Assembly (NCBI GenBank): GCA_000165345.1
Contig: CM000430.1
Span: forward strand, 448,001 to 512,000
Reading direction: 5' to 3'
Length of the DNA stretch: 64,000 nucleotides
A program made the position numbers and the translations under genes. Under the pieces are notes generated by a model, which had not been told where the DNA came from, searched no databases, and saw nothing but the letters and a program-made list of their open reading frames with translations. Of the stretch, positions 227-60,877 are shown in pieces (within the stretch, counting starts at the first letter, position 1; every line of letters starts with the position of its first letter).

Positions 227-2728
227 TCACTTAACACCCTTTAAAATATTTGATAATGATTGTATTGAACAGATTATAGTTACAGCTTGTTTTGCCTTGC
301 ATACGACTATTAGGTAATATATTAATTCTGTATATGAAAAAACTATTCTACACCTTTCAAAGTCTGAGCGTAGGATTCTCTGAGGAGATCGAATTGTTTT
401 TTTGAGCAAAACTTTTAATTCAAGGGGAAGGAAGCTGTTGTGAACCAATTCTGTCATTTCAAATTTGACAATTCCACATAGTTTAAATACGTAGCTCCAG
501 ATTGAAGACCTTATGGGATTAGTTGTGGGAACCTTATAAATATCACAAATTGTTGTAATGTTCTTATTGCAGTTATATAAAAGAATGTCTAATTCGTCCT
601 TAATACACTTTGAGCATTCTCCTGAGTAAATCGATAAAATAGACCATGCAGTTTCAGAATAGAATTCATATTCTAGCATTTGAATTGAAAAACTATTAAG
701 CATGCTCATGAAGTGTGCATTTTTATTTGTAAGGCATCCATTCTTCAATTCTTTTTTGTTTTTTCTAAACTCAAAGGTCTTTTCATTGTCTTTAAAACTA
801 AATTTTTTGTTGGATTCCAGCTTATTTAGAACTAAATTAGGGCTTTCTATCCCAATAAAGTTGCTTATATGTTTGAATCTTCCGGATAAAGAATTAAACT
901 GCAATTTTGGTTTAGAATTCATCACAGAGGAAAGAAGAACTCGATCAGCCTTATGCTTGTCAGAGTTTGATCTGAATAGAGGAATTTCGTCTTTGCTAAT
1001 ACCTAAAATATCGCCTTGGGGCGGAAAGTGATTAAGCAGATCCTTTATTCTAATCAAAGTTGAAACCTCTCCTTCATATTTTTGTTTTGAATGATACTCA
1101 CTCTCAAGATTTTTTTCATTATCATTAAAATTCTTAGTGTTGATTTGAGTGTATTCTTGCAGATATTCATTGGATCTAATTTGACTATCTGAAAATAAGG
1201 GCGTTCTATCTGAATTAGAGTAGTCTTTCCCCTCGTTAATTTGTTTCCTTTTTAACTTTACACTAATTGAGCTATCTAATATCCACTTTAAATCTATAAA
1301 GGAATTTATTTGAGAAAATAATCTAAGGTTGTAAATCTTGTTTAAACTGAAAATTGGAAGCTTTAAAAAACTTAATTTTGGCATTGACATATTTTTGTTT
1401 GTATTTGAAGTTGAATGATTGTTTTTTATACGATGGGTATAATTTTTTTCTTCCTTTTCTACATCTATATATTCTGATAAAATTTCTTTATAGTATGATG
1501 TTGTTAAGCTATCGGGATTTGAATTTTCATGAAAGAAATTCGATGAGATTACCTTTCGATATTCAAAGCAATCTTTCATAGTGGCTGGGTTTGGTTTGTA
1601 GCATGTATTCCCATCGCAATTCGGTCCTTCCAATGGATCTGGGCCAAGCTCCCAATGATCCATAGATGTTATTCCAAATGAACATGACAATTGCGATATT
1701 GATTGTATTGTTGTAACAATACATAAAATATGGCATAGTTCTGTTATTGTCCAAACTTGAGTATCTGAAACTTCTCCTATCAAATGGTTCATAAGTTCAT
1801 TAGAAATGTAGGCAGGTTCAAATGTAATACATTTTAGAAATTCAAAAAGCGCAAAGAATTTAACTGGTAGAGAATCTGAAGGATTTTCCAACCATTCAAT
1901 TGGACCATTGTTAAATATATACATTTGCATTTCTAATTTGATCATGTAATCGTTGTCGTATAAAGATGAACATAAAATCCCAATAAAGTGACGGTAGTGT
2001 AGTGGTAAAGCACCAAAGTTTTGATCTTCCATATTTATTTTGTAAGATTTGAGTAGCGCTTTTGCATATTCTGGAAGTATGTAAACAATTCTAAATACAG
2101 ACGGAATTCTCCCATAAAATGTATTGAAAACATCTTTCCAAAAAGTTTCGTTCTCATCTAAATAAAACTTGTTAGGAAAAAACCCAGGGGTACCAGGAAC
2201 TAAATACTCTGGAGAAATGAATCTTCCACAAGGAAGACAATGTTGATTATTTTCGCTATTTTCTGATGTAAATATTTTGATTGCTTCTCTAATTGAAATG
2301 CTACTTCCTCCCAGGGTGATGTTGAATAATAAATCCGGGTGTATATCTTTGATTTTCGTATAAAATAATGTGCTACTATACTCTGTTAATAACTTCTTTG
2401 GGTCCTCGTCTCTTCTTGAACCAATTGACCACGTTTCATTCAAACTGTTGATAATTGATTGCCAACTATTGGAAATAGACTCTCGAATATCTGAGTAGGG
2501 ATTTAGGCAAGTTGATAAGCGAAGAAGAATGCATAAAGATTGTTCAAATTTCCAGTAACTTGTTTCTCCATTTAACAATATTTGTTTCTGTATTACGTTG
2601 ACTCTATTTTCTATGTATCTTCCAATACTATTTGATTTTAGTCTTCCCCAGTTTGGAATATCCAAAAAAATACTAACAAATTCCTTATAGTTAACTAAAA
2701 GAAGAGATATTGGAAAACCATTATCCAT
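227..2728 (-). CDS. SESN: Sestrin (PA26) homolog with both Sesn-A and Sesn-C regions and a long low-complexity linker
   Basis: 833-aa ORF. The N-terminal part has HYRHFIGILCSS...NNGPIEWLEN...FEFLKCITFEPAYISNELMNHL...VWTITELCHILCIVTTIQSISQLSCSFGI, which parallels the sestrin block ...LVTHHL..GGDPAWL...INKLLAHRPWLITKEHI...[28 protein letters not shown]. The C-terminus has RSSIWSYVFKLCGIVKFE...LKVLLKKTI...YTELIYYLIVVCKAKQAVTIICSIQSL, which parallels [21 protein letters not shown]...LKVYIKTV...NLLLLEARMQAALLYALRAIT. Confidence 0.6.
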   Translation of the reverse strand: MDNGFPISLLLVNYKEFVSIFLDIPNWGRLKSNSIGRYIENRVNVIQKQILLNGETSYWKFEQSLCILLRLSTCLNPYSDIRESISNSWQSIINSLNETWSIGSRRDEDPKKLLTEYSSTLFYTKIKDIHPDLLFNITLGGSSISIREAIKIFTSENSENNQHCLPCGRFISPEYLVPGTPGFFPNKFYLDENETFWKDVFNTFYGRIPSVFRIVYILPEYAKALLKSYKINMEDQNFGALPLHYRHFIGILCSSLYDNDYMIKLEMQMYIFNNGPIEWLENPSDSLPVKFFALFEFLKCITFEPAYISNELMNHLIGEVSDTQVWTITELCHILCIVTTIQSISQLSCSFGITSMDHWELGPDPLEGPNCDGNTCYKPNPATMKDCFEYRKVISSNFFHENSNPDSLTTSYYKEILSEYIDVEKEEKNYTHRIKNNHSTSNTNKNMSMPKLSFLKLPIFSLNKIYNLRLFSQINSFIDLKWILDSSISVKLKRKQINEGKDYSNSDRTPLFSDSQIRSNEYLQEYTQINTKNFNDNEKNLESEYHSKQKYEGEVSTLIRIKDLLNHFPPQGDILGISKDEIPLFRSNSDKHKADRVLLSSVMNSKPKLQFNSLSGRFKHISNFIGIESPNLVLNKLESNKKFSFKDNEKTFEFRKNKKELKNGCLTNKNAHFMSMLNSFSIQMLEYEFYSETAWSILSIYSGECSKCIKDELDILLYNCNKNITTICDIYKVPTTNPIRSSIWSYVFKLCGIVKFEMTELVHNSFLPLELKVLLKKTIRSPQRILRSDFERCRIVFSYTELIYYLIVVCKAKQAVTIICSIQSLSNILKGVK

Positions 2729-2890
2729 AGTTTGACACTAGTTTTTGTAGATAACATATTCAATAATTATACGCTTACGAATAAATAGATAGTAGCTTAC
2801 CGCCAATAAGGCAAATTTTTTTGGTACTTAAAAACTGTTAAAACAATATTCATTAAAAGCCTAAACACTTATAATGAAACTATTAAAGAT

Positions 2891-4276
2891 TCAACAGTAA
2901 AATCTAGAATCTAATGTATTACTATGAATATTAGTACAATGAAAATTATGGAATGAGCCAATACCTCCAGTTCCATTTATATTTTTATTAGCTTCTGCAT
3001 TACTCATTAAAATATTTCCCAGTCCTGATTCAACTTGGGAGTTACATAGTGTATTGCCAGATACCAGGTTTTGATGATTTTGCCTTCCTAATTGTCTCTG
3101 AAGGAGCTGCTCATTGCATTTATCAACAATAAAGGATAAAACTACGGATGGTAGGGTCTCTAATCCATTCATGGACCCATCGGAAGCAAATTTTGCACTA
3201 ACTGGCAGTGTTGTCAGGCCACTAAATGATGATGGAAAGTATGAAATTGTAATGTAAGAAAGATTTTGCGAAATTTCTGCGCATGGATGAATATTCCTGT
3301 TTTCTCTAAATGAAATAGACTGTTGTTGTTCACGCCATTGATCTGTTTTAAACGGATAGCCTACTGAAAATCCTGTAACTTGTGCCGAGCTGTTTGCATT
3401 AGAAATTCCGGTATTAAAAGCTCTGTAATGCTCGTTTGTATTGGATATATATTGATTATCGCACTTTAACTGTGTGCTGTTTTGGATATAACCACCATTA
3501 AAAGTATCAATTTTTGGATTGTCTGAACATAGAGAAATAGATGAATCATCTTTTAACTGGTTATTAAAATGGTTAACACTGTGCTCGGAATTAGTATTAT
3601 TTACATTTTTACCTGAAATAATTTTTGACAAGTTTCTCCTTCTTGACCATCTCTGTCTATCTGCAACTCTACAGGGCTCACATGATCTCATATGGGGTGT
3701 TGCATCACGCTTGTGACATCTCCAGCAAAGTTTTGGGTCGTCTCTACGTCTCCTTACCATGTTATTTTCTTTATTAATTGATTTAAATTTGTCTGAATTT
3801 ACCTTTTCTGTCAGATTATTCTCCAAATACGAAAACAAATTAAGGTTTTGGCTGGACTCCACATATTGATTTTCAGTTTTAAATTGGTTTTGATCTTTTA
3901 ATAAACAGTCTATTATTATTGATTTTGGAGTTTCTTCTTGAGAAAATGAGATAGACTCTGAAATCTTTTTATGATTTGTATTACCTCTGTGTATTTCCAG
4001 AAATTTTGGATTGCATTCAGAAGCGTTCACTTCTTCTGAAATATTGTTCGTACTGAAGCTACATTTGGAATTACTATGATTGTAATTTACATTTCCGTTT
4101 ACGTTTACGTTAACATTTACATTTAACTTATTACTGGTATTTTGAATACTTGTATTCAAGATTTTAGGAGAGTTGCTTAAATTGCTTGATGTCTCGTTCC
4201 AATTGCAAGCCTCTTCATCAAAAGATAAGATCATATCAGAGTTGATATATATTTCAGGAATTTGTATCCCTTCCAT
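2891..4276 (-). CDS. Hypothetical low-complexity protein with a basic Cys cluster (CWRCHKRDATPHMRSCEPCR)
   Basis: 461-aa ORF with ATG at 4276-4274. It has N/S-rich low complexity including an NVNVNVNGNVNYN tract, and a C-x2-C-x11-C-x2-C motif flanked by RRRR. No confident family assignment. Confidence 0.4.
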   Translation of the reverse strand: MEGIQIPEIYINSDMILSFDEEACNWNETSSNLSNSPKILNTSIQNTSNKLNVNVNVNVNGNVNYNHSNSKCSFSTNNISEEVNASECNPKFLEIHRGNTNHKKISESISFSQEETPKSIIIDCLLKDQNQFKTENQYVESSQNLNLFSYLENNLTEKVNSDKFKSINKENNMVRRRRDDPKLCWRCHKRDATPHMRSCEPCRVADRQRWSRRRNLSKIISGKNVNNTNSEHSVNHFNNQLKDDSSISLCSDNPKIDTFNGGYIQNSTQLKCDNQYISNTNEHYRAFNTGISNANSSAQVTGFSVGYPFKTDQWREQQQSISFRENRNIHPCAEISQNLSYITISYFPSSFSGLTTLPVSAKFASDGSMNGLETLPSVVLSFIVDKCNEQLLQRQLGRQNHQNLVSGNTLCNSQVESGLGNILMSNAEANKNINGTGGIGSFHNFHCTNIHSNTLDSRFYC

Positions 4277-53968: not shown

Positions 53969-56263
53969 TTATGAATATATTCTTTCATTATTTTCTTGAT
54001 TTTTTTTACGCAAATTAATAATTGAAATTCCTGCATATCTTCCTAAACTCATGATTGTATAGACAGGATTAATTCTTGGCAATATTTTTAAAAGAGACGC
54101 ATCAACAATACCTAAGTTTCTTGTGCCTGATAATAAAAACGATTCATTTTCCACAAGCTCTCCCAATGGAACAGATCCTGACCAATGCCAAATACTTGTT
54201 CCTATATTGTAAGCTAATCTTAAAATTTCGTCTTTATTCGAAAGATCTGGAAGTATTGGAGGGAATGTTGCAATTTTCTCAAATATTATGTTTTTGCTTT
54301 CAAGACAATCCCTTGGGTCAGAAACTCCGTTACATTCATCTGGAAATATTGAATTTTTATAATTGAGTATGATGTTATAAACATTTTCAAGCTCATCCAT
54401 AAAATCTGGAGATAGTGGCTTGTTTATAAATAATCTCTCAGTTCTTGCAGATGCAAGCACGCCAATTATGCCATTCAATACTGTCATAGGGCATGAAGAG
54501 TATCCTCCTTGTTCTGCAATATTTTGAAATCTTCCTGACCTTAGCATCTTTATCACAGAACTAAGTCCAATTATTACGTTTTCTCTATCTTCTTCTTCCG
54601 ATAAATATTTCCCATCTAATTCAAATTTTCCATCACTTTTTACACTTATTCCCCCCCTGCTTTTAGGTTCAGATGTAAAATAAAAAACAGCAGCAGATCT
54701 CCTTAGACATTCTAAAGGATACTGTAAAATCAGACAAATTGGTATTCCTCCACTTAATGGGTAATTTTCTGCGCATTTTTTGAATATTTCAATCACAAAA
54801 TCCGTAACAATATTATTCCTAAGTCTTGGAGGGAAAATAAGTCTTGTAGCATATAATGTGCCTTCCACAGTTCTTCCTCCTCCCAAAGACTCGATATTAA
54901 TAGTACTGCAGCTATATCCGCAATTTCCAGAAGTTTTTGAAAAACTTGACATGATTGGGTTTACGAAAGGGTTAGTAAAAACATCACTTTTGAAAAAAAA
55001 TGGAATTGCAAATAACAATCTATCGACGATATTTGTTCCCAAATTTGGAACTTCTAGCAATGGCATTATATTCATATTTTGTAGAGATTCAAGAGGTCCT
55101 ATCCCGGACTTATAAAGTAATACAGGGGTATGGATTGCCCCTGATGATAGTATTATCATTCCATTGTCATTTAAACAAATTCTTTTGGCAAAGATACTTC
55201 GAATTAAGTCTTTAGAAGGTTTTATACCGTCCTCAATACCAAATTCATTGGCCAGTTTTCCTGCAGTTATATTAAAAAATGGGTATTCAAAGTCAGAATA
55301 TTGATTTTTTAACATAACTCTTTCTAAAATAATACATTTTGCATTTAAAACACTTTTACTAGAAAGTGCCGATTGAAAACCCATTTTATTATAATTAAAT
55401 TTTCCTCCTAAATTTGCATTCCTTAAAAATGGAAAACCTGTGCTTTGAGTTTTGTTTCCTCTAATCTCTCTCTGTCCTTCGATTTGTTCAAACTCTACTT
55501 TTGTTACAAGATGGTTTGTTAAAATATCAACAGGACTTGTTTCAATGACCGTATTATTTTTGGCATTTTGATAATCAGAAAGTAAGATATCTGATGACAT
55601 TCTGAAACCGTGGTCACTTACATTAAATAGATTGTATACTCTCCAAGTTCCGTTTATTCTATTTAAGCTGAATTCTGAGTTCGGGTTTTTTTCTGTCACA
55701 AATCCAATATCTTTAAATGCATTCTCCATAGGTTCAACAATTGGGAGATCCTGATCGCCTTTATTACTAACTCTATTTACAATCCAATCATAACTCTCTT
55801 TCAAAATGGTTTTGTTAAAACTAGCTCCTGAATTTTCTTCTAAAAGTTTGAAATATTCTGGATTTTCTTCCATGATCATTCCCATATTTATTGCTGTCCC
55901 ACCTCCTAATACATTTCCAATATGAGTTCTTATTCCCTGTTTAGTAATAACAAGTTCGCTAACTTTTTTGTCATCCACAACACTTCCCATTCCTTTTATA
56001 TCACGAGTAAGTATTGATTCATCTAGCCTAGCACCTCCTCTTTCTACAAGCAAAACAGAGTATTTCGAGTCAGCAAGAGTTCTAGCTAATGCGCATCCTG
56101 CAGCCCCACCCCCAACTACTATATAATCATAGCTAGATTTAATATTCCTCGATCCAGTTATGATTCTTTTAGGTAAAACGAAAGCTCTCGCACTTATTTT
56201 TTCAAAAATACGAAGCGCATTTAGTGAAAATAATAATAAAGTGAAATATAAAATATTTTTCAT
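53969..56263 (-). CDS. Secreted GMC-family FAD oxidoreductase (choline dehydrogenase / glucose oxidase-like)
   Basis: 764 aa. It has an N-terminal signal peptide (MKNILYFTLLLFSLNA) and the GMC N-terminal FAD-binding fingerprint YDYIVVGGGAAGCALARTLADS..YSVLLVERGG. The GMC C-terminal substrate-domain region is recognisable, and several insertions are present relative to a typical 550-600-aa GMC enzyme. Confidence 0.75.
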   Translation of the reverse strand: MKNILYFTLLLFSLNALRIFEKISARAFVLPKRIITGSRNIKSSYDYIVVGGGAAGCALARTLADSKYSVLLVERGGARLDESILTRDIKGMGSVVDDKKVSELVITKQGIRTHIGNVLGGGTAINMGMIMEENPEYFKLLEENSGASFNKTILKESYDWIVNRVSNKGDQDLPIVEPMENAFKDIGFVTEKNPNSEFSLNRINGTWRVYNLFNVSDHGFRMSSDILLSDYQNAKNNTVIETSPVDILTNHLVTKVEFEQIEGQREIRGNKTQSTGFPFLRNANLGGKFNYNKMGFQSALSSKSVLNAKCIILERVMLKNQYSDFEYPFFNITAGKLANEFGIEDGIKPSKDLIRSIFAKRICLNDNGMIILSSGAIHTPVLLYKSGIGPLESLQNMNIMPLLEVPNLGTNIVDRLLFAIPFFFKSDVFTNPFVNPIMSSFSKTSGNCGYSCSTINIESLGGGRTVEGTLYATRLIFPPRLRNNIVTDFVIEIFKKCAENYPLSGGIPICLILQYPLECLRRSAAVFYFTSEPKSRGGISVKSDGKFELDGKYLSEEEDRENVIIGLSSVIKMLRSGRFQNIAEQGGYSSCPMTVLNGIIGVLASARTERLFINKPLSPDFMDELENVYNIILNYKNSIFPDECNGVSDPRDCLESKNIIFEKIATFPPILPDLSNKDEILRLAYNIGTSIWHWSGSVPLGELVENESFLLSGTRNLGIVDASLLKILPRINPVYTIMSLGRYAGISIINLRKKNQENNERIYS

Positions 56264-56608: not shown

Positions 56609-57184
56609 TTAAGGAGAAAAACTTACTTTTTTTTCACTTCTAAGTAATTCTTGAAATCTGAATGCAGAGCACTTCATTTCTTCAGCTAGTTCAACCAATT
56701 CATCTTTGAATCGCTCATTTATAACTTTTATATCAAGCCTATTATCAATATTTTCTGGTTTCAAATTATTTTTCGAAGTAGGTGGCAATTCTAAACTATG
56801 CTCTGCAAATTTAGTTGAATTACTTTCAAGATATTCATAAATATTTTTGTTTGGCTTCAAATGTGAATATAAATTTTTGATATTTTGGGGTTGATTTTCA
56901 TCTCCTAATAATTCTAGATTTAGCTTATCTTCCAATTTCAATTTTAATATCTCTATTCTTCCAAGGTAATCATCTTGCAGTTCTTTATTGCCGCTAATTT
57001 GGAGCTTGACAGACTCAAGAGAGTGTAATATCTTTTTGTATGCAATAATATTAATTATGCTTTTGTCAAATGTTACAAGCATTTCTGAACAGTTAGTTCC
57101 GAATGCATATTCTAAAAATTTATCTTCTTCAAGTACACATTCAATATTGTATAATAGTACATTAGACCGGTGCATAATATTCAT
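56609..57184 (-). CDS. Hypothetical protein (191 aa, predicted coiled-coil)
   Basis: ORF with ATG at 57184-57182. The segment EILKLKLEDKLNLELL has heptad-like character. No family assignment. Confidence 0.35.
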   Translation of the reverse strand: MNIMHRSNVLLYNIECVLEEDKFLEYAFGTNCSEMLVTFDKSIINIIAYKKILHSLESVKLQISGNKELQDDYLGRIEILKLKLEDKLNLELLGDENQPQNIKNLYSHLKPNKNIYEYLESNSTKFAEHSLELPPTSKNNLKPENIDNRLDIKVINERFKDELVELAEEMKCSAFRFQELLRSEKKVSFSP

Positions 57185-57417
57185 GATATCTCGGTTACAT
57201 AATAGCCATAGTTTATCAATTTATAGAATATTTAGCAAATATTGTTAATAGGAAACATTTATTCATATATCTAATTTAACCGCCCTAATCAATTTATTTA
57301 AAATAATATTCTAATTTCAAGCAAGAAACTCAATTCCACACCTTTTACATAGTAATGAGGGAAAATTGTGTGTTTTAAGGAAAGAATGCAGGCTCAAGCT
57401 ATTACAAATAGATAGTC

Positions 57418-58313
57418 ATGAAAGTTAAATCAACCTTTATTTTGCTAATTTTTACTCTTAATTATCTCACATCTTATTGTTCATTAAGGAATACTAATGG
57501 TGTAAGTACATAAATAAAAAAATTATTAATTATTTGTAACATTTTATTAGAATGGAAACAAATTAGTTGAAATACTTGAACCAAAGGAAATGAACAACGT
57601 AAGAGATAATTTTCAAAAGTCGAATAATAATTTTGAGCTTTTAGGTAACTTCTGCATTGAGAATCTTTCCTTTTGTTTACTATGGATATATTTCAAGGCT
57701 CAGTTTAAGTAATTTAGATAGCAATATAGTGGAAAGAAGGCTAGAAGAATTATATCCTTTTTTGCAGAAAATAGCCTGCACTGCTTTGAATTGTTTAAGT
57801 ATGTTTAACTAAATTTACACAAATAGTAACACTCAATCTCACAGTGATCTTTAATCCTATTCCCGGCTCAGCTATGACAGTTTCCGCTCTTTCATGTAAG
57901 TGGAATAAATAAAGAAAATAATTTATAATTGCTTTAGGGATTCTTTCATTTTCAACATTGAGCAATAGCGTATTACCTTACTTGTTACAATACGCAACGG
58001 GTCTTCCTCAAGCACTTTACTTTTCTTTGCAAATTTCCGAATTTCAGATAATTACTTCACCTGTCAGCCTAGTTAAAGAGGGAGATGTAAGTCGGAACAC
58101 GTCTTTTTTTTTTCGAATCTAGAACAGAGCTAATAATTGATGCAGATATTTGGAAAACTAATTTCCCATAGGGATGGAGATAATGCTATACATGATCTAC
58201 TAGTTTCTCCATGTGATGGCGTTTTGCAATATGTTTGGCCAAATGTTTCAACACCTACTGTTGCTTTCATGCTAATTGCAAGGATTCAATGTAATTTGAA
58301 AATACAAGGATAG
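57418..58313 (+). CDS. Multi-exon gene encoding a signal-peptide/signal-anchor protein (tentative 6-exon model; not visible in the ORF track)
   Basis: Proposed exons: 57418-57501 (MKVKSTFILLIFTLNYLTSYCSLRNTNG), 57551-57598, 57645-57798, 57845-57895, 57938-58086 and 58146-58313 (ending ...VAFMLIARIQCNLKIQG*, TAG at 58311). Introns are 57502-57550 (GTAAGT), 57599-57644 (GTAAGA), 57799-57844 (GTATGT), 57896-57937 (GTAAGT) and 58087-58145 (GTAAGT). All are 42-59 nt and phase-consistent. There is a weak resemblance to the signal peptidase complex subunit SPCS3 C-terminus (SALSWILSFSTLSNSVLPYLL versus LTLSWNVVPNAGILPLV), which is speculative. Confidence 0.3.
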
Positions 58314-58526
58314 TGAGGCAGATTGAAATATCTTAATACTAAATAAATTATAATAGTTTGATAATTATCAAACACGCTTTTTCTAAATTGTTCATATTAC
58401 AAGAAAATGACGTCATCATATTTGATTATTAGATCAAAAGGCGGCTTGAATGCACGCAAAATCCCCACTGAGCGTTTTGATGTTTTCTAAATCAAATTTG
58501 TAGAAATTGAGAGAATTTATGTAAAT

Positions 58527-59555
58527 ATGCAGATTAATTACCTAATTTTTTCTGTATTTTCTGCGTTACTTCTTGGGTTAAATAGTCCAGTATACGCAAT
58601 AACTACTGAGTCAAATGAATATGTTGCTAACACCAAAAGCAAATCTAGAAATAGACTTAGAAGATTTTTGGATAGTTTAAATAAAGTGGAACTCAAGCTT
58701 CCCAAGATAACCAGAAAAAATGTGATTAGTGAATATACTGTTGAGGATTTAGTCTCAAAGTTGCGAGAAATAGAGAAAACAAGAAGTAACACAAAAAATC
58801 CATTCAAGAAAATAAGATGTCTCATTCAAGAGTCAAATATTAAGAAAAAAATCAGTTCATTACTTAAAGAAAAGAGTGAAGAAGAAAAGTTCGAAAAGTT
58901 TGAAGAAGAATTTCCAATGGATTATTCTCCAAAGGCATTATCTGAAGAGGGGTCTATATCGCCCTATATCCCAGTAGTTGTTGAAGACTACAAGGACGTA
59001 GAAGTTGCGTCAGGAGCATCTATTAGAAATGAGGGAATTCAAGACGAGATTAAATATCTGACATCGGAGGATACTGATCAATCGACTAGTGGAGAGTTGG
59101 ATGATTTGGCACATCCAATTACATCAGAAACTGGCAATGAAAATGAAGGCACTGAAGATTCCGTTACGGAAGACTTTGAAAAAAAGGAAGTTGTAGAAGA
59201 CAATTTGGAAGACTATCAAGCCAAAGATGTGGATGGTGAAAGCCAGTCAAACGAGAATGGGCAGCAAACAGATTCAGATCTGCAAGAAAACGCAGATAGA
59301 GGAGAAAAAGACAACATTCAAAGCAAGGCAAGATTAGCGAACATTTTTAAAAGAAAAAAGTTAACTGCTTCCGAAAAGCTTGAAAGATTAATGTCACTTA
59401 AAAAAGATATTGAAAGCAGGATTTCTAGTTCTAAGAGTAAACTCCTTAGAAGAGTTTTGGAAATGAAACTTAAAAGAGTGAATCACAAGATTTCTAAAAT
59501 AACAGATGCGGCTGTAGATACAGTTACTGAATCAGGCGAGATTGACATCGAATAG
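58527..59555 (+). CDS. Secreted acidic/charged protein (signal peptide, E/K-rich, predicted coiled-coil)
   Basis: 342 aa. The N-terminal signal peptide is MQINYLIFSVFSALLLGLNSPVYA. The remainder is highly charged (about 40% D/E/K) with no Cys residues. Its character is like a lineage-specific secreted antigen. Confidence 0.5.
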   Translation: MQINYLIFSVFSALLLGLNSPVYAITTESNEYVANTKSKSRNRLRRFLDSLNKVELKLPKITRKNVISEYTVEDLVSKLREIEKTRSNTKNPFKKIRCLIQESNIKKKISSLLKEKSEEEKFEKFEEEFPMDYSPKALSEEGSISPYIPVVVEDYKDVEVASGASIRNEGIQDEIKYLTSEDTDQSTSGELDDLAHPITSETGNENEGTEDSVTEDFEKKEVVEDNLEDYQAKDVDGESQSNENGQQTDSDLQENADRGEKDNIQSKARLANIFKRKKLTASEKLERLMSLKKDIESRISSSKSKLLRRVLEMKLKRVNHKISKITDAAVDTVTESGEIDIE

Positions 59556-59908: not shown

Positions 59909-60412
59909 ATGTTTAAACTATTTAGTTGTTTGTGCTGTCAAAATGTTGACTTGAATGAAGAAAGGTAAGTCATATTTGACAGTTTAGATGAATTTATATC
60001 TTTTTTTACAGAATGGACACAAGATTATTCACAAGGTTTCCTTCAACGTATCATCTTAGGACTCTTTTTGACGAATATGTAAGTTTTCCTATTCAACATT
60101 ATATAAAGTAAGTCTAATTATTGGTAGAGCTTAAATGGATCAGATATTTCTGAAGGAAGCGAAGTTGGAGATAATCATGAGTGTCAAAATGAAGATCGTC
60201 TAGAAATGATTGTTGAAGAAGATAATGAATTTTTAGAAGATGGACTTTATGATAGAAATTCTCTAAATGCGAGTAGGAAGGTCACTGAAAAAAGTGAAGT
60301 TGATGTAATGAACATAAACAGCAATAGAAGTTCATTGAACACAAACTCTGGATCTAATACGAATCGATCAAAGCAATCGAAGAGGAATAAAAGGAGGAGC
60401 TACAGGAAGTGA
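59909..60412 (+). CDS. Small protein with an N-terminal Cys cluster (putative S-palmitoylation motif), 3 exons
   Basis: Exons are 59909-59964 (MFKLFSCLCCQNVDLNEE plus 2 nt), 60012-60078 (RMDTRLFTRFPSTYHLRTLFDEY) and 60128-60412 (SLNGSDISEG...KRNKRRSYRK*). Introns are 59965-60011 (47 nt, GTAAGT..TTACAG) and 60079-60127 (49 nt, GTAAGT..TGGTAG). The track shows only 60206-60412. Confidence 0.45.
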
Positions 60413-60571: not shown

Positions 60572-60877
60572 ATGAACTCAATAAAGTTATTAGTAGAGTC
60601 ATTCATAAGTTCAGGAGATATCTGTGTTATATCGAAGAGTTATTGCCCATACTGCATAAAAGCAATCAATAGCTTGAAAAGCGCTGGATATTCACCTTTG
60701 GTTATGCAAATCGACGGTAGAGTAGATACTAAAGAAATTCAAGATTACTGTAGGGAGCTAACTGGAAGTGGAACTGTCCCAAGAGTATTTGTTAAGGGAA
60801 GGTTTATAGGAGGATGTGATGATACCCTGAAGCTGTTAGAAGACGGCTCATTGAGTAGTTTTGTTGAAACGATCTAG
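60572..60877 (+). CDS. GRX: Glutaredoxin (dithiol CPYC class)
   Basis: 101 aa. The active site is VISKSYCPYCIKA, followed by the glutathione-binding signature TVPRVFVKGRFIGGCDD. Confidence 0.8.
   Translation: MNSIKLLVESFISSGDICVISKSYCPYCIKAINSLKSAGYSPLVMQIDGRVDTKEIQDYCRELTGSGTVPRVFVKGRFIGGCDDTLKLLEDGSLSSFVETI

What the first reader, a model, noticed from the sequence alone, without database searches (positions are those of the whole stretch)
57418..58313. Region without track ORFs contains a phase-consistent six-exon gene model with a signal peptide
The 1.3-kb gap 57185-58526 has no ORF of 60 aa or more. However, it contains five canonical GTAAGT/GTAAGA/GTATGT donors, each followed 42-59 nt later by a pyrimidine-rich tract plus AG. 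Every junction preserves the reading frame, giving a protein of about 220 aa. The protein begins with a signal/anchor sequence (MKVKSTFILLIFTLNYLTSYCSL) and ends at TAG 58311. A weak similarity of the exon-4/5 product to the signal peptidase complex subunit SPCS3 C-terminus is noted but unproven.
Basis: inference. Interest (0 to 1): 0.5.

Follow-up and report, generated by a model that had tools for sequence, protein, structure and literature searches.

The report
Already annotated six-exon Cryptosporidium gene

Summary
The window is C. parvum Iowa II chromosome 2. Its 217-aa product is identical, residue for residue, to deposited C. parvum proteins (QOY42980.1 / CPATCC_0028280 / CPHLJ_2g2525; CryptoDB cgd2_2523, "uncharacterized protein").

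- **Gene model:** all five GT..AG introns keep their position and phase (0,0,1,1,0) in six other Cryptosporidium genomes, including the distant gastric species C. andersoni. Introns 2-5 are also kept in two environmental contigs.
- **Junction evidence:** one public contig from a related species lacks introns 1, 3, 4 and 5 at exactly the predicted junctions.
- **Selection and chance:** dN/dS is about 0.2. No shuffled control comes close to a 654-nt spliced frame.
- **Expression:** published RNA-seq gives about 180-420 TPM at 18-48 h post infection.
- **Protein:** N-terminal signal sequence, no other membrane-like segment, four invariant cysteines and a near-conserved NVT sequon. No homologue was detected outside the genus.
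- **SPCS3 idea:** not supported (Pfam, PDB profile, hhalign probability 0.2%).
- **Structure:** prediction failed (pLDDT 36-38), so the biochemical function remains unknown.

The finding is correct but already known.

The parts
57418..57501 (+). Exon 1 (84 nt, ends in phase 0): start ATG and the signal sequence MKVKSTFILLIFTLNYLTSYCS|LRNTNG
   Evidence: An in-frame TAG lies 3 codons upstream. This is the only segment with 19-residue Kyte-Doolittle hydropathy above 1.6. A hydrophobic N-terminus is present in every full-length ortholog.
57502..57550 (+). Intron 1 (49 nt, GTAAGT...TTAG)
   Evidence: Same position and phase in L001, L004, L005, L002, L003 and L008. Absent at exactly this junction in contig L010.
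57551..57598 (+). Exon 2 (48 nt, phase 0): NGNKLVEILEPKEMNN, a variable linker
   Evidence: It is 45-48 nt long in the orthologs.
57599..57644 (+). Intron 2 (46 nt, GTAAGA...TTAG)
   Evidence: Conserved in all 8 other lineages examined. Retained as a 44-nt insert in L010.
57645..57798 (+). Exon 3 (154 nt, ends in phase 1): the NVT sequon, the near-invariant block ALRIFPFVYYGYISRLSLSNL, a predicted helix IVERRLEELYPFLQK, and Cys89 and Cys94
   Evidence: The exon is 154 nt in every ortholog reconstructed.
57799..57844 (+). Intron 3 (46 nt, GTATGT...ACAG)
   Evidence: Absent at exactly this junction in L010.
57845..57895 (+). Exon 4 (51 nt, phase 1 to phase 1): (M)IFNPIPGSAMTVSALS
   Evidence: It is 51 nt in every ortholog.
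57896..57937 (+). Intron 4 (42 nt, GTAAGT...TTAG)
   Evidence: Absent in L010. The deposited C. ubiquitum and C. felis models wrongly read through it.
57938..58086 (+). Exon 5 (149 nt, ends in phase 0): W-LSFSTLSNSVLPYLLQYATGLPQALYF...SPVSLVKEGD
   Evidence: It is 149 nt and highly conserved in every ortholog. That includes C. xiaoi and C. ryanae, whose deposited models skip most of it.
58087..58145 (+). Intron 5 (59 nt, GTAAGT...GCAG)
   Evidence: Absent in L010.
58146..58313 (+). Exon 6 (168 nt including TAG 58311-58313): a variable loop, then the near-invariant block SPCDGVLQYVWPNVSTPTVAFMLIARIQC with Cys185 and Cys211

Best explanation
**What it is.** This is the protein-coding gene known in CryptoDB as cgd2_2523 (CPATCC_0028280, CPHLJ_2g2525) on C. 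parvum chromosome 2. It lies between a Use1-like gene (cgd2_2520) and cgd2_2530.

**Shown.**
- It is transcribed on the + strand.
- Five short GT-AG introns (42-59 nt) are removed to give a 654-nt mRNA coding region and a 217-aa precursor.
- The gene is conserved and under purifying selection across the whole genus.
- It is expressed at roughly average level in intracellular stages 18-48 h post infection.

**Inferred.**
- The hydrophobic N-terminus (residues 1 to about 21) acts as an ER signal sequence, so the protein is made into the secretory pathway.
- The mature part (about 194 aa, about 21.6 kDa) has no other membrane-like segment, no conserved C-terminal retrieval signal and no GPI-type tail. 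It is therefore most likely a soluble lumenal or secreted protein.
- The four invariant cysteines (89, 94, 185, 211) would form two disulfides, and Asn44 in the NVT sequon would be glycosylated.
- Two blocks are almost invariant from C. parvum to C. andersoni: residues 46-68 and 181-211. Together with dN/dS of about 0.2, this points to binding of a conserved partner or a housekeeping role, not a fast-evolving host-interaction effector.
- The C-terminal ~65 residues are probably an all-beta domain.

The precise biochemical activity is not determined.
For: **Identity**
- The translation is an exact match to QOY42980.1, WKS76549.1 and others.
- The neighbouring ORF is 100% identical to the C. parvum Iowa II GMC oxidoreductase.
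- Gene numbering follows from glutaredoxin = cgd2_2540 (PMC3542205) and from the rows cgd2_2520 / cgd2_2523 / cgd2_2530 / cgd2_2533 / cgd2_2540 in the S2 File of PMC11078545.

**Splicing**
- All five introns keep position and phase with GT..AG in chipmunk genotype I, C. ubiquitum, C. felis, C. xiaoi, C. ryanae and C. andersoni. Introns 2-5 are kept in contigs L006 and L007.
- Exons 3, 4 and 5 are 154, 51 and 149 nt everywhere.
- Against chipmunk genotype I, all six exons align without gaps, while every intron carries 3-5 gapped positions.
- Contig L010 is colinear with the spliced CDS across junctions 1, 3, 4 and 5.

**Selection:** dN/dS is 0.19-0.24.

**Expression:** 183-309 TPM at 18 hpi, 188-196 at 36 hpi, 289-424 at 48 hpi and 0-13 at 72 hpi (PMC11078545 S2 File).

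**Protein features**
- Hydropathy, cysteines and sequons; conservation.
- Genus-restricted: an exhaustive HMM search of 1.84 billion representatives and two searches of the 5.8-billion set returned only Cryptosporidium proteins, plus one spurious repeat protein.
- Beta-rich C-terminus: both AlphaFold runs place strands at about 156-211.
Against: - No signal-peptide predictor was available, so the call rests on hydropathy and inspection. Cleavage is not shown, and the N-terminus could be an uncleaved type II anchor.
- Cys21 sits in the putative signal region and is nearly conserved. That is unusual for a segment that is discarded.
- The region 104-150 is moderately hydrophobic (peak 1.15), so membrane association cannot be excluded.
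- Both structure models have very low confidence (pLDDT 36 and 38), so no fold statement is secure.
- I did not see C. parvum splice-junction reads themselves. The transcript-level junction evidence comes from a related species, and contig L010 could be genomic with intron loss and not cDNA.
- Localisation data (hyperLOPIT) could not be accessed.
Confidence: 0.8

Rival explanations
1. The protein is a highly diverged SPCS3 (SPC22/23) subunit of the ER signal peptidase complex. It would be a type II protein held by an uncleaved N-terminal anchor, with a glycosylated lumenal domain that supports SEC11.
For: - The gross layout fits: a short N-terminus, one N-terminal hydrophobic segment, a ~190-aa remainder and an N-glycosylation sequon.
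- There is a 9-residue resemblance, TLSNSVLPY against TLSWNVVPN.
Against: - No Pfam hit, PF04573 included, for any of 10 members at E<=10.
- The family profile does not reach the SPCS3 chains 7p2p_B and 9rjb_D in the PDB at E<=10.
- hhalign probability is 0.23%.
- The 9-residue match lies in a different relative position of the two proteins.
Confidence: 0.03
2. The gene model is right, but the N-terminal hydrophobic segment is not cleaved. The protein would then be a type II membrane protein resident in the ER, Golgi or an organelle membrane, not a soluble cargo.
For: - A very short n-region.
- A near-conserved Cys21-x-Leu-Arg motif at the end of the hydrophobic segment in intestinal species, which suggests this segment is part of the mature protein.
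- No ideal small residues at -3/-1, apart from Ser19/Cys21.
Against: - In the gastric clade the Cys is replaced (YYNLRG) and the segment contains Glu and Lys (LLIEIKANE), which weakens it as a stable anchor.
- The hydrophobic core is only about 13-16 residues long.
Confidence: 0.2
3. The middle of the protein (about residues 67-120) is a degenerate NifU/Nfu C-terminal-type domain and the C-terminus is a lipoyl/biotinyl-like barrel-sandwich domain. The protein would then be a diverged relative of cofactor-carrier or scaffold proteins, relocated to the secretory pathway.
For: - Profile hits to the plant NifU-like domains 1th5 (E=0.17) and 2z51 (E=1.2) over the same 41 residues.
- The predicted helix-strand-strand-helix order there.
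- Foldseek hits of the AlphaFold model are dominated by GcvH, lipoyl and BCCP domains, with probabilities of about 0.6-0.9.
Against: - All E-values are non-significant. The two NifU hits are homologues of each other, so they are not independent.
- No CXXC motif, and no conserved Lys in the hairpin loop, which is the most variable part of the protein.
- Pfam finds neither PF01106 nor PF00364.
- hhalign against E. coli BCCP and an E2p lipoyl domain gives probabilities of 0.2-0.3%.
- The model has pLDDT 38, so fold matches are unreliable.
Confidence: 0.05
4. There is no functional gene: the splice-site-like hexamers and the joined frame are a chance arrangement or a decaying pseudogene.
For: No single ORF of 60 aa or more lies in the gap.
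Against: - 0 of 200 shuffles exceed 294 nt, against 654 nt here.
- The frame stays open in 7 further species.
- dN/dS is about 0.2.
- Introns are conserved in position and phase.
- The gene is expressed at about 180-420 TPM.
Confidence: 0.01

Closest known systems
Cryptosporidium orthologs of cgd2_2523: C. hominis CUV04609.1, C. tyzzeri CTYZ_00002499, C. meleagridis cmbei_2002523, chipmunk genotype I ELE39_001751, C. muris CMU_037420, C. andersoni cand_033330, C. serpentis ACR3K2_31420
   Same: - Same protein: 44-98% identity over the full length.
- Same flanking genes wherever the surrounding locus was fetched: GMC oxidoreductase on one side, then the downstream gene, a small spliced gene and glutaredoxin on the other; a gene at the Use1-like position is called in the five intestinal loci but not in C. 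andersoni.
- Same six-exon structure wherever the DNA was examined.
- All are labelled uncharacterized or hypothetical.
   Different: Nothing of substance: the window copy is the C. parvum member. The deposited models for C. xiaoi and C. ryanae (exon 5 mostly skipped) and for C. ubiquitum and C. felis (truncated, or split with intron 4 read through) differ, but the full six-exon frame is open in their DNA.
Signal peptidase complex subunit 3 (SPCS3, SPC22/23, Pfam PF04573)
   Same: Similar size, and a single N-terminal hydrophobic segment followed by a lumenal part that carries an N-glycosylation sequon.
   Different: No detectable sequence relationship. In SPCS3 the N-terminal segment is an uncleaved anchor; here it looks more like a signal peptide.
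Biotinyl/lipoyl barrel-sandwich hybrid domains (BCCP, E2 lipoyl domains, GcvH)
   Same: - The low-confidence model of the C-terminal ~65 residues gives this fold class as its top Foldseek matches.
- The strand pattern V-K-E-G-D ... S-P-x-D-G-V-L resembles the two halves of the hybrid motif (from my own knowledge of these domains).
   Different: No significant sequence or profile match. There is no conserved lysine at the hairpin tip. The protein is in the secretory pathway, whereas these domains act in the cytosol or organelle matrix.
NifU C-terminal (Nfu) domain, degenerate second domain of plant CnfU (PDB 1th5, 2z51)
   Same: A weak profile match of residues 67-107, with the motif 'vE..L.E.yPfL' aligned to 'vE..L.EirPyL'.
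   Different: E-values of 0.17-1.2 are not significant. There is no CXXC motif and Pfam PF01106 is not matched.

Membership tests
Cryptosporidium cgd2_2523 orthogroup (annotated uncharacterized protein) | Full-length sequence identity to deposited members | tested here: met
   Exact match to C. parvum entries, and 98% to C. tyzzeri, 82% to chipmunk genotype I and 44% to the C. muris/andersoni/serpentis group.
Cryptosporidium cgd2_2523 orthogroup (annotated uncharacterized protein) | Conserved gene neighbourhood | tested here: met
   The order GMC oxidoreductase (-), target (+), 342-380-aa gene (+; 550 aa in C. andersoni) holds in L001-L005 and L008. A gene at the Use1-like position (-) is called in L001-L005 but not in L008. 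A small spliced gene and glutaredoxin follow wherever the fetched DNA reaches them.
Cryptosporidium cgd2_2523 orthogroup (annotated uncharacterized protein) | Shared exon-intron structure | tested here: met
   Five introns at identical positions and phases. Exons 3-5 are 154, 51 and 149 nt in all lineages.
Spliceosomal GT-AG intron-containing gene | GT donor and AG acceptor at every junction, with the reading frame kept | tested here: met
Spliceosomal GT-AG intron-containing gene | Transcript or processed copy that shows the joined exons | tested here: inconclusive
   Contig L010, from a related species, lacks introns 1, 3, 4 and 5 exactly and keeps intron 2. The library type of SRR31831731 is unknown. 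No C. parvum junction reads were examined; only gene-level TPM was seen.
Secretory proteins with an N-terminal signal peptide | Short charged n-region, a hydrophobic h-region of about 10-16 residues and a polar c-region at the extreme N-terminus | tested here: met
   MKVK / STFILLIFTLNYL / TSYCS. This is the only segment with mean hydropathy above 1.6, and a hydrophobic N-terminus is present in all full-length orthologs.
Secretory proteins with an N-terminal signal peptide | Cleavage by signal peptidase and ER import | not testable with these tools
   No predictor or experiment was available.
SPC22/23 (SPCS3), Pfam PF04573 | Match to the family HMM | tested here: not met
   hmmscan against Pfam-A at E<=10 gave 0 families for the query and for all 10 members of A1.
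SPC22/23 (SPCS3), Pfam PF04573 | Profile or pairwise similarity to a bona fide SPCS3 | tested here: not met
   The A1 profile against the PDB gave no SPCS3 hit, although 7p2p_B and 9rjb_D are in the library. hhalign of A3 against human SPCS3 gave probability 0.23% over 9 columns.
SPC22/23 (SPCS3), Pfam PF04573 | Physical association with SEC11 in the signal peptidase complex | not testable with these tools
   Needs co-purification.
Biotin/lipoyl attachment domain (PF00364 and relatives) | HMM match and a conserved modifiable lysine at the hairpin tip | tested here: not met
   No Pfam hit. The loop at residues 166-180 is the most variable region and has no conserved Lys. hhalign probability is 0.2-0.3%.
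Biotin/lipoyl attachment domain (PF00364 and relatives) | Barrel-sandwich hybrid fold | tested here: inconclusive
   The Foldseek top hits are GcvH, lipoyl and BCCP domains, but all have E>0.1 and come from a model with pLDDT 38.
NifU C-terminal domain (PF01106) | HMM match and a CXXC cluster-binding motif | tested here: not met
   No Pfam hit. The PDB profile hits have E=0.17 and 1.2 only. The cysteines are spaced C-x4-C at a different position.

The most novel reading that the evidence does not exclude
cgd2_2523 could be a slowly evolving component of the Cryptosporidium secretory pathway that looks genus-specific only because it has diverged beyond sequence recognition. It might be a replacement or remnant of a conserved ER or organelle complex subunit, or a new fold that includes a lipoyl-like beta domain used as a binding module. 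Its five introns, strictly conserved within a 654-nt coding region in an otherwise intron-poor genome, might themselves matter for expression.
Probability: 0.1. Interest if true: 0.45.

Novelty: already known. Interest (0 to 1): 0.2.

Why it matters
- **For the scan:** reading splice signals directly from raw sequence recovered a multi-exon gene exactly. An ORF track misses it, the 2015 C. parvum/C. hominis gene-pair table does not list it, and several current Cryptosporidium annotations still get it wrong.
- **For biology:** the value is modest. It is one more conserved, expressed, genus-restricted secretory-pathway protein of unknown function in a pathogen with few drug or vaccine leads.
- **Unusual features:** slow evolution and a high intron density set it apart from typical Cryptosporidium secreted proteins. 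That could justify tagging or knock-down, but nothing here shows a new mechanism.

Tried and rejected
- **Pfam:** scans of the protein and of 10 family members found nothing at E<=10.
- **PDB sequence and profile searches** (whole protein, residues 40-152, residues 146-217): only non-significant hits, namely T4 gp59 at E=0.04-0.05, NifU-like domains at 0.17-1.2, p47phox PX at about 0.7 and mitochondrial AspRS at 1.2.
- **Homologue searches:** an exhaustive HMM search of 1.84 billion representatives found only Cryptosporidium fragments plus P0016, a bacterial-type repeat protein at E=3.7e-4 that I regard as spurious. A profile search of the 5.8-billion set with a broader alignment added only the gastric-clade orthologs.
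- **AlphaFold2:** two runs gave pLDDT 36.4 and 38.3.
- **Foldseek:** run on the poor model against the PDB. No hit reached E<=0.001, so the lipoyl/BCCP/GcvH trend is a lead only. hhalign against E. coli BCCP and an E2p lipoyl domain was not significant.
- **SPCS3:** rejected.
- **RNA genes:** Rfam and tRNA scans of 57000-58700 found nothing, so the gap is not explained by an RNA gene.
- **Spliced-model enumeration:** a brute-force enumeration in the orthologous loci timed out. I replaced it with a junction-by-junction search.
- **Literature:** the identifiers cgd2_2523, cgd2_2525, CPATCC_0028280, CMU_037420 and cand_033330 appear in no main text. The hyperLOPIT paper (Guerin 2023) is not held. 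Two other papers had no supplements held as text.

Full report
**Where we are.** The window is AT-rich (about 31% G+C). The long ORF at 53969-56263 (-) is 100% identical to the GMC oxidoreductase of Cryptosporidium parvum Iowa II. The glutaredoxin ORF at 60572-60877 corresponds to cgd2_2540 (PMC3542205). The window is therefore C. parvum chromosome 2.

**The observation.**
- The sequence at 57418-58313 is as described.
The product is 217 aa, ends at TAG 58311-58313, and the intron phases are 0,0,1,1,0.
- The ATG at 57418 follows an in-frame TAG three codons upstream.
- No ORF of 60 aa or more lies inside the gap.
- Five GTA[AT]G[TA] hexamers lie on the + strand in these 896 nt, against a window-wide density of 0.62 per kb. 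All five are used as donors.
- Two hundred shuffled segments of the same size gave spliced ORFs of at most 294 nt under the same rules.
- No Rfam family and no tRNA explains the gap.

**It is an annotated gene.**
- A search of the 5.8-billion-protein collection returned only Cryptosporidium proteins.
It shares a 90% cluster with C. hominis, C. tyzzeri and C. meleagridis entries.
- The expression tables of PMC11078545 list the genes in the order cgd2_2520, cgd2_2523, cgd2_2530, cgd2_2533, cgd2_2540. From that order and the name cmbei_2002523, I infer that the CryptoDB identifier is cgd2_2523, 'Uncharacterized protein'.
- The gene-pair table of the 2015 reannotation paper lists cgd2_2520 and cgd2_2530 but no gene between them (PMC4637869). 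A C. hominis protein with an ENA accession (CUV04609.1) does exist.
- C. muris (CMU_037420), C. andersoni (cand_033330) and C. serpentis orthologs are also deposited.

**Independent support for the exon-intron structure.** I fetched the syntenic loci of chipmunk genotype I, C. xiaoi, C. ryanae, C. ubiquitum, C. felis and C. andersoni, plus two short environmental contigs.
- A junction-by-junction search recovered every intron at the homologous position and in the same phase, with GT..AG ends. The search tried all GT/AG pairs and all phases, and scored each against the C. parvum junction peptide.
- All five introns were recovered in six species. Introns 2-5 were recovered in the two contigs, which do not reach exon 1.
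- The full six-exon frame is open in all of them. Exons 3, 4 and 5 are 154, 51 and 149 nt throughout.
- Intron lengths drift from 39 to 77 nt and are mostly not multiples of three.
- Against chipmunk genotype I, all six exons align without gaps, while every intron has 3-5 gapped positions. dN/dS is 0.19-0.24.
- My C. andersoni reconstruction equals the deposited 227-aa protein.

**A contig that lacks four of the introns.** L010 is a 2219-nt Logan assembly from SRR31831731. It comes from a species whose coding sequence is about 80% identical to C. ubiquitum.
- It is colinear with the spliced coding sequence across junctions 1, 3, 4 and 5.
- It carries only a 44-nt GTAAGA...TTTTAG insert exactly at junction 2.
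- It may be a transcript with one retained intron, or a genome that lost four introns through a processed copy. Either way the junctions are those predicted.

**Expression.** In HCT-8 culture, cgd2_2523 has 183-309 TPM at 18 hpi, 188-196 at 36 hpi, 289-424 at 48 hpi and 0-13 at 72 hpi. Several growth-inhibiting compounds reduce it about two-fold (PMC11078545 S2 and S3 Files). That is close to the average gene. The pattern resembles genes of proliferating stages more than sexual-stage genes.

**What the protein looks like.**
- Only residues 1 to about 20 reach membrane-like hydropathy. The next peak, around residues 115-120, reaches 1.15.
- The N-terminus (MKVK, then a 13-16-residue hydrophobic run, then TSYCS) has the form of a signal peptide. 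A hydrophobic N-terminus is present in all full-length orthologs.
- The rest is about 194 aa and about 21.6 kDa.
- Cysteines 89, 94, 185 and 211 are invariant across the ten full-length and near-full-length sequences aligned. An NVT sequon at Asn44 is present in most species.
- There is no conserved C-terminal retrieval motif and no hydrophobic tail.
- Two blocks are nearly invariant from C. parvum to C. andersoni: ALRIFPFVYYGYISRLSLSNL and SPCDGVLQYVWPNVSTPxxAFMLIARIQC. The linker after the signal sequence and the loop at 166-180 vary freely.
- I infer a soluble, disulfide-bonded and probably glycosylated protein of the secretory pathway, with a conserved partner or housekeeping role. A type II anchored form is the main alternative.

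**Attempts to name the fold or family.**
- Pfam found nothing for any member.
- PDB sequence and profile searches gave only non-significant hits.
- An exhaustive HMM search of 1.84 billion representatives, and a second profile search with a broader alignment, found no homologue outside Cryptosporidium.
- AlphaFold2 with the shallow alignments allowed by the tool gave pLDDT 36 and 38.
- Foldseek with the second model gave no significant match. Its top hits were almost all barrel-sandwich hybrid domains (GcvH, lipoyl, BCCP) over the C-terminal ~65 residues. This agrees with the strand pattern seen in both models. Direct profile comparison to BCCP and a lipoyl domain was not significant, and there is no conserved lysine.
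- A weak resemblance of residues 67-107 to degenerate plant NifU-like domains (E=0.17 and 1.2) is likewise only a lead.

**The SPCS3 suggestion.** I confirmed that bona fide SPCS3 chains are in the PDB library. The family profile does not reach them at E<=10. PF04573 is not matched. hhalign of the family against human SPCS3 gives 0.23% probability. The suggestion is not supported.

**Verdict.** The gene is already annotated in at least eight Cryptosporidium genomes as an uncharacterized protein, so it is not new. What remains open is its function. The most defensible reading is a genus-restricted, conserved protein of the secretory pathway. Practical by-products are the misannotations in four other species, listed under things noticed in passing.

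Noticed in passing
window 59909-59964, 60012-60078, 60128-60412 (+): A second gene that the ORF track misses. A three-exon model (two GTAAGT introns) gives a 135-aa protein that begins MFKLFSCLCC, a cysteine cluster that might be acylated, and ends in a basic tail. Its length matches the 135-aa gene annotated at the syntenic position in chipmunk genotype I (L001 5501-6003). By gene order it is cgd2_2533, which is highly expressed in the columns seen (about 700-3950 TPM in PMC11078545 S2). It has no Pfam hit.
   Followed up: partly
L002 3001-4001, L003 3001-3996, L004 2542-3420, L005 2541-3437: The deposited models of this gene look wrong in four species. C. xiaoi (190 aa) and C. ryanae (187 aa) skip most of the highly conserved exon 5. 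C. ubiquitum is split into a 102-aa gene and a 123-aa gene. C. felis is truncated to 130 aa. The last two read through intron 4. The full six-exon frame is open in all four.
   Followed up: yes
L010 1-760 (Logan SRR31831731 contig): This contig, from an unidentified Cryptosporidium species, lacks introns 1, 3, 4 and 5 of the gene exactly but keeps intron 2 (44 nt). It runs on into the downstream gene. Its first ~42 nt do not match exon 1, have no in-frame ATG and end in TTTCAG, like an acceptor site. I could not decide whether it is cDNA, pre-mRNA or a genome with intron loss.
   Followed up: partly
window 56609-57184 (-): The divergently transcribed neighbour (cgd2_2520, 191 aa) gets no Pfam hit itself. 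Its syntenic C. ryanae counterpart carries a precomputed PF09753 (Use1, an ER SNARE) hit. The two start codons are only 233 nt apart, so the genes probably share a promoter region.
   Followed up: partly
window 53969-56263 (-): The GMC oxidoreductase (cgd2_2510) has a signal-peptide-like N-terminus. Its expression rises from about 6-41 TPM at 18-36 hpi to 197-1257 TPM at 48 hpi, and many compounds strongly reduce it. This suggests a sexual-stage gene. The gastric-clade orthologs are about 220 aa longer (987-988 aa).
   Followed up: no
window 58527-59555 (+): The downstream gene cgd2_2530 (342 aa) has a signal-peptide-like start and an acidic, low-complexity middle. It has no significant Pfam hit. 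It is well expressed (about 580-3700 TPM at 18-48 hpi) and appears in the 'Signal' keyword gene lists of PMC11078545.
   Followed up: no
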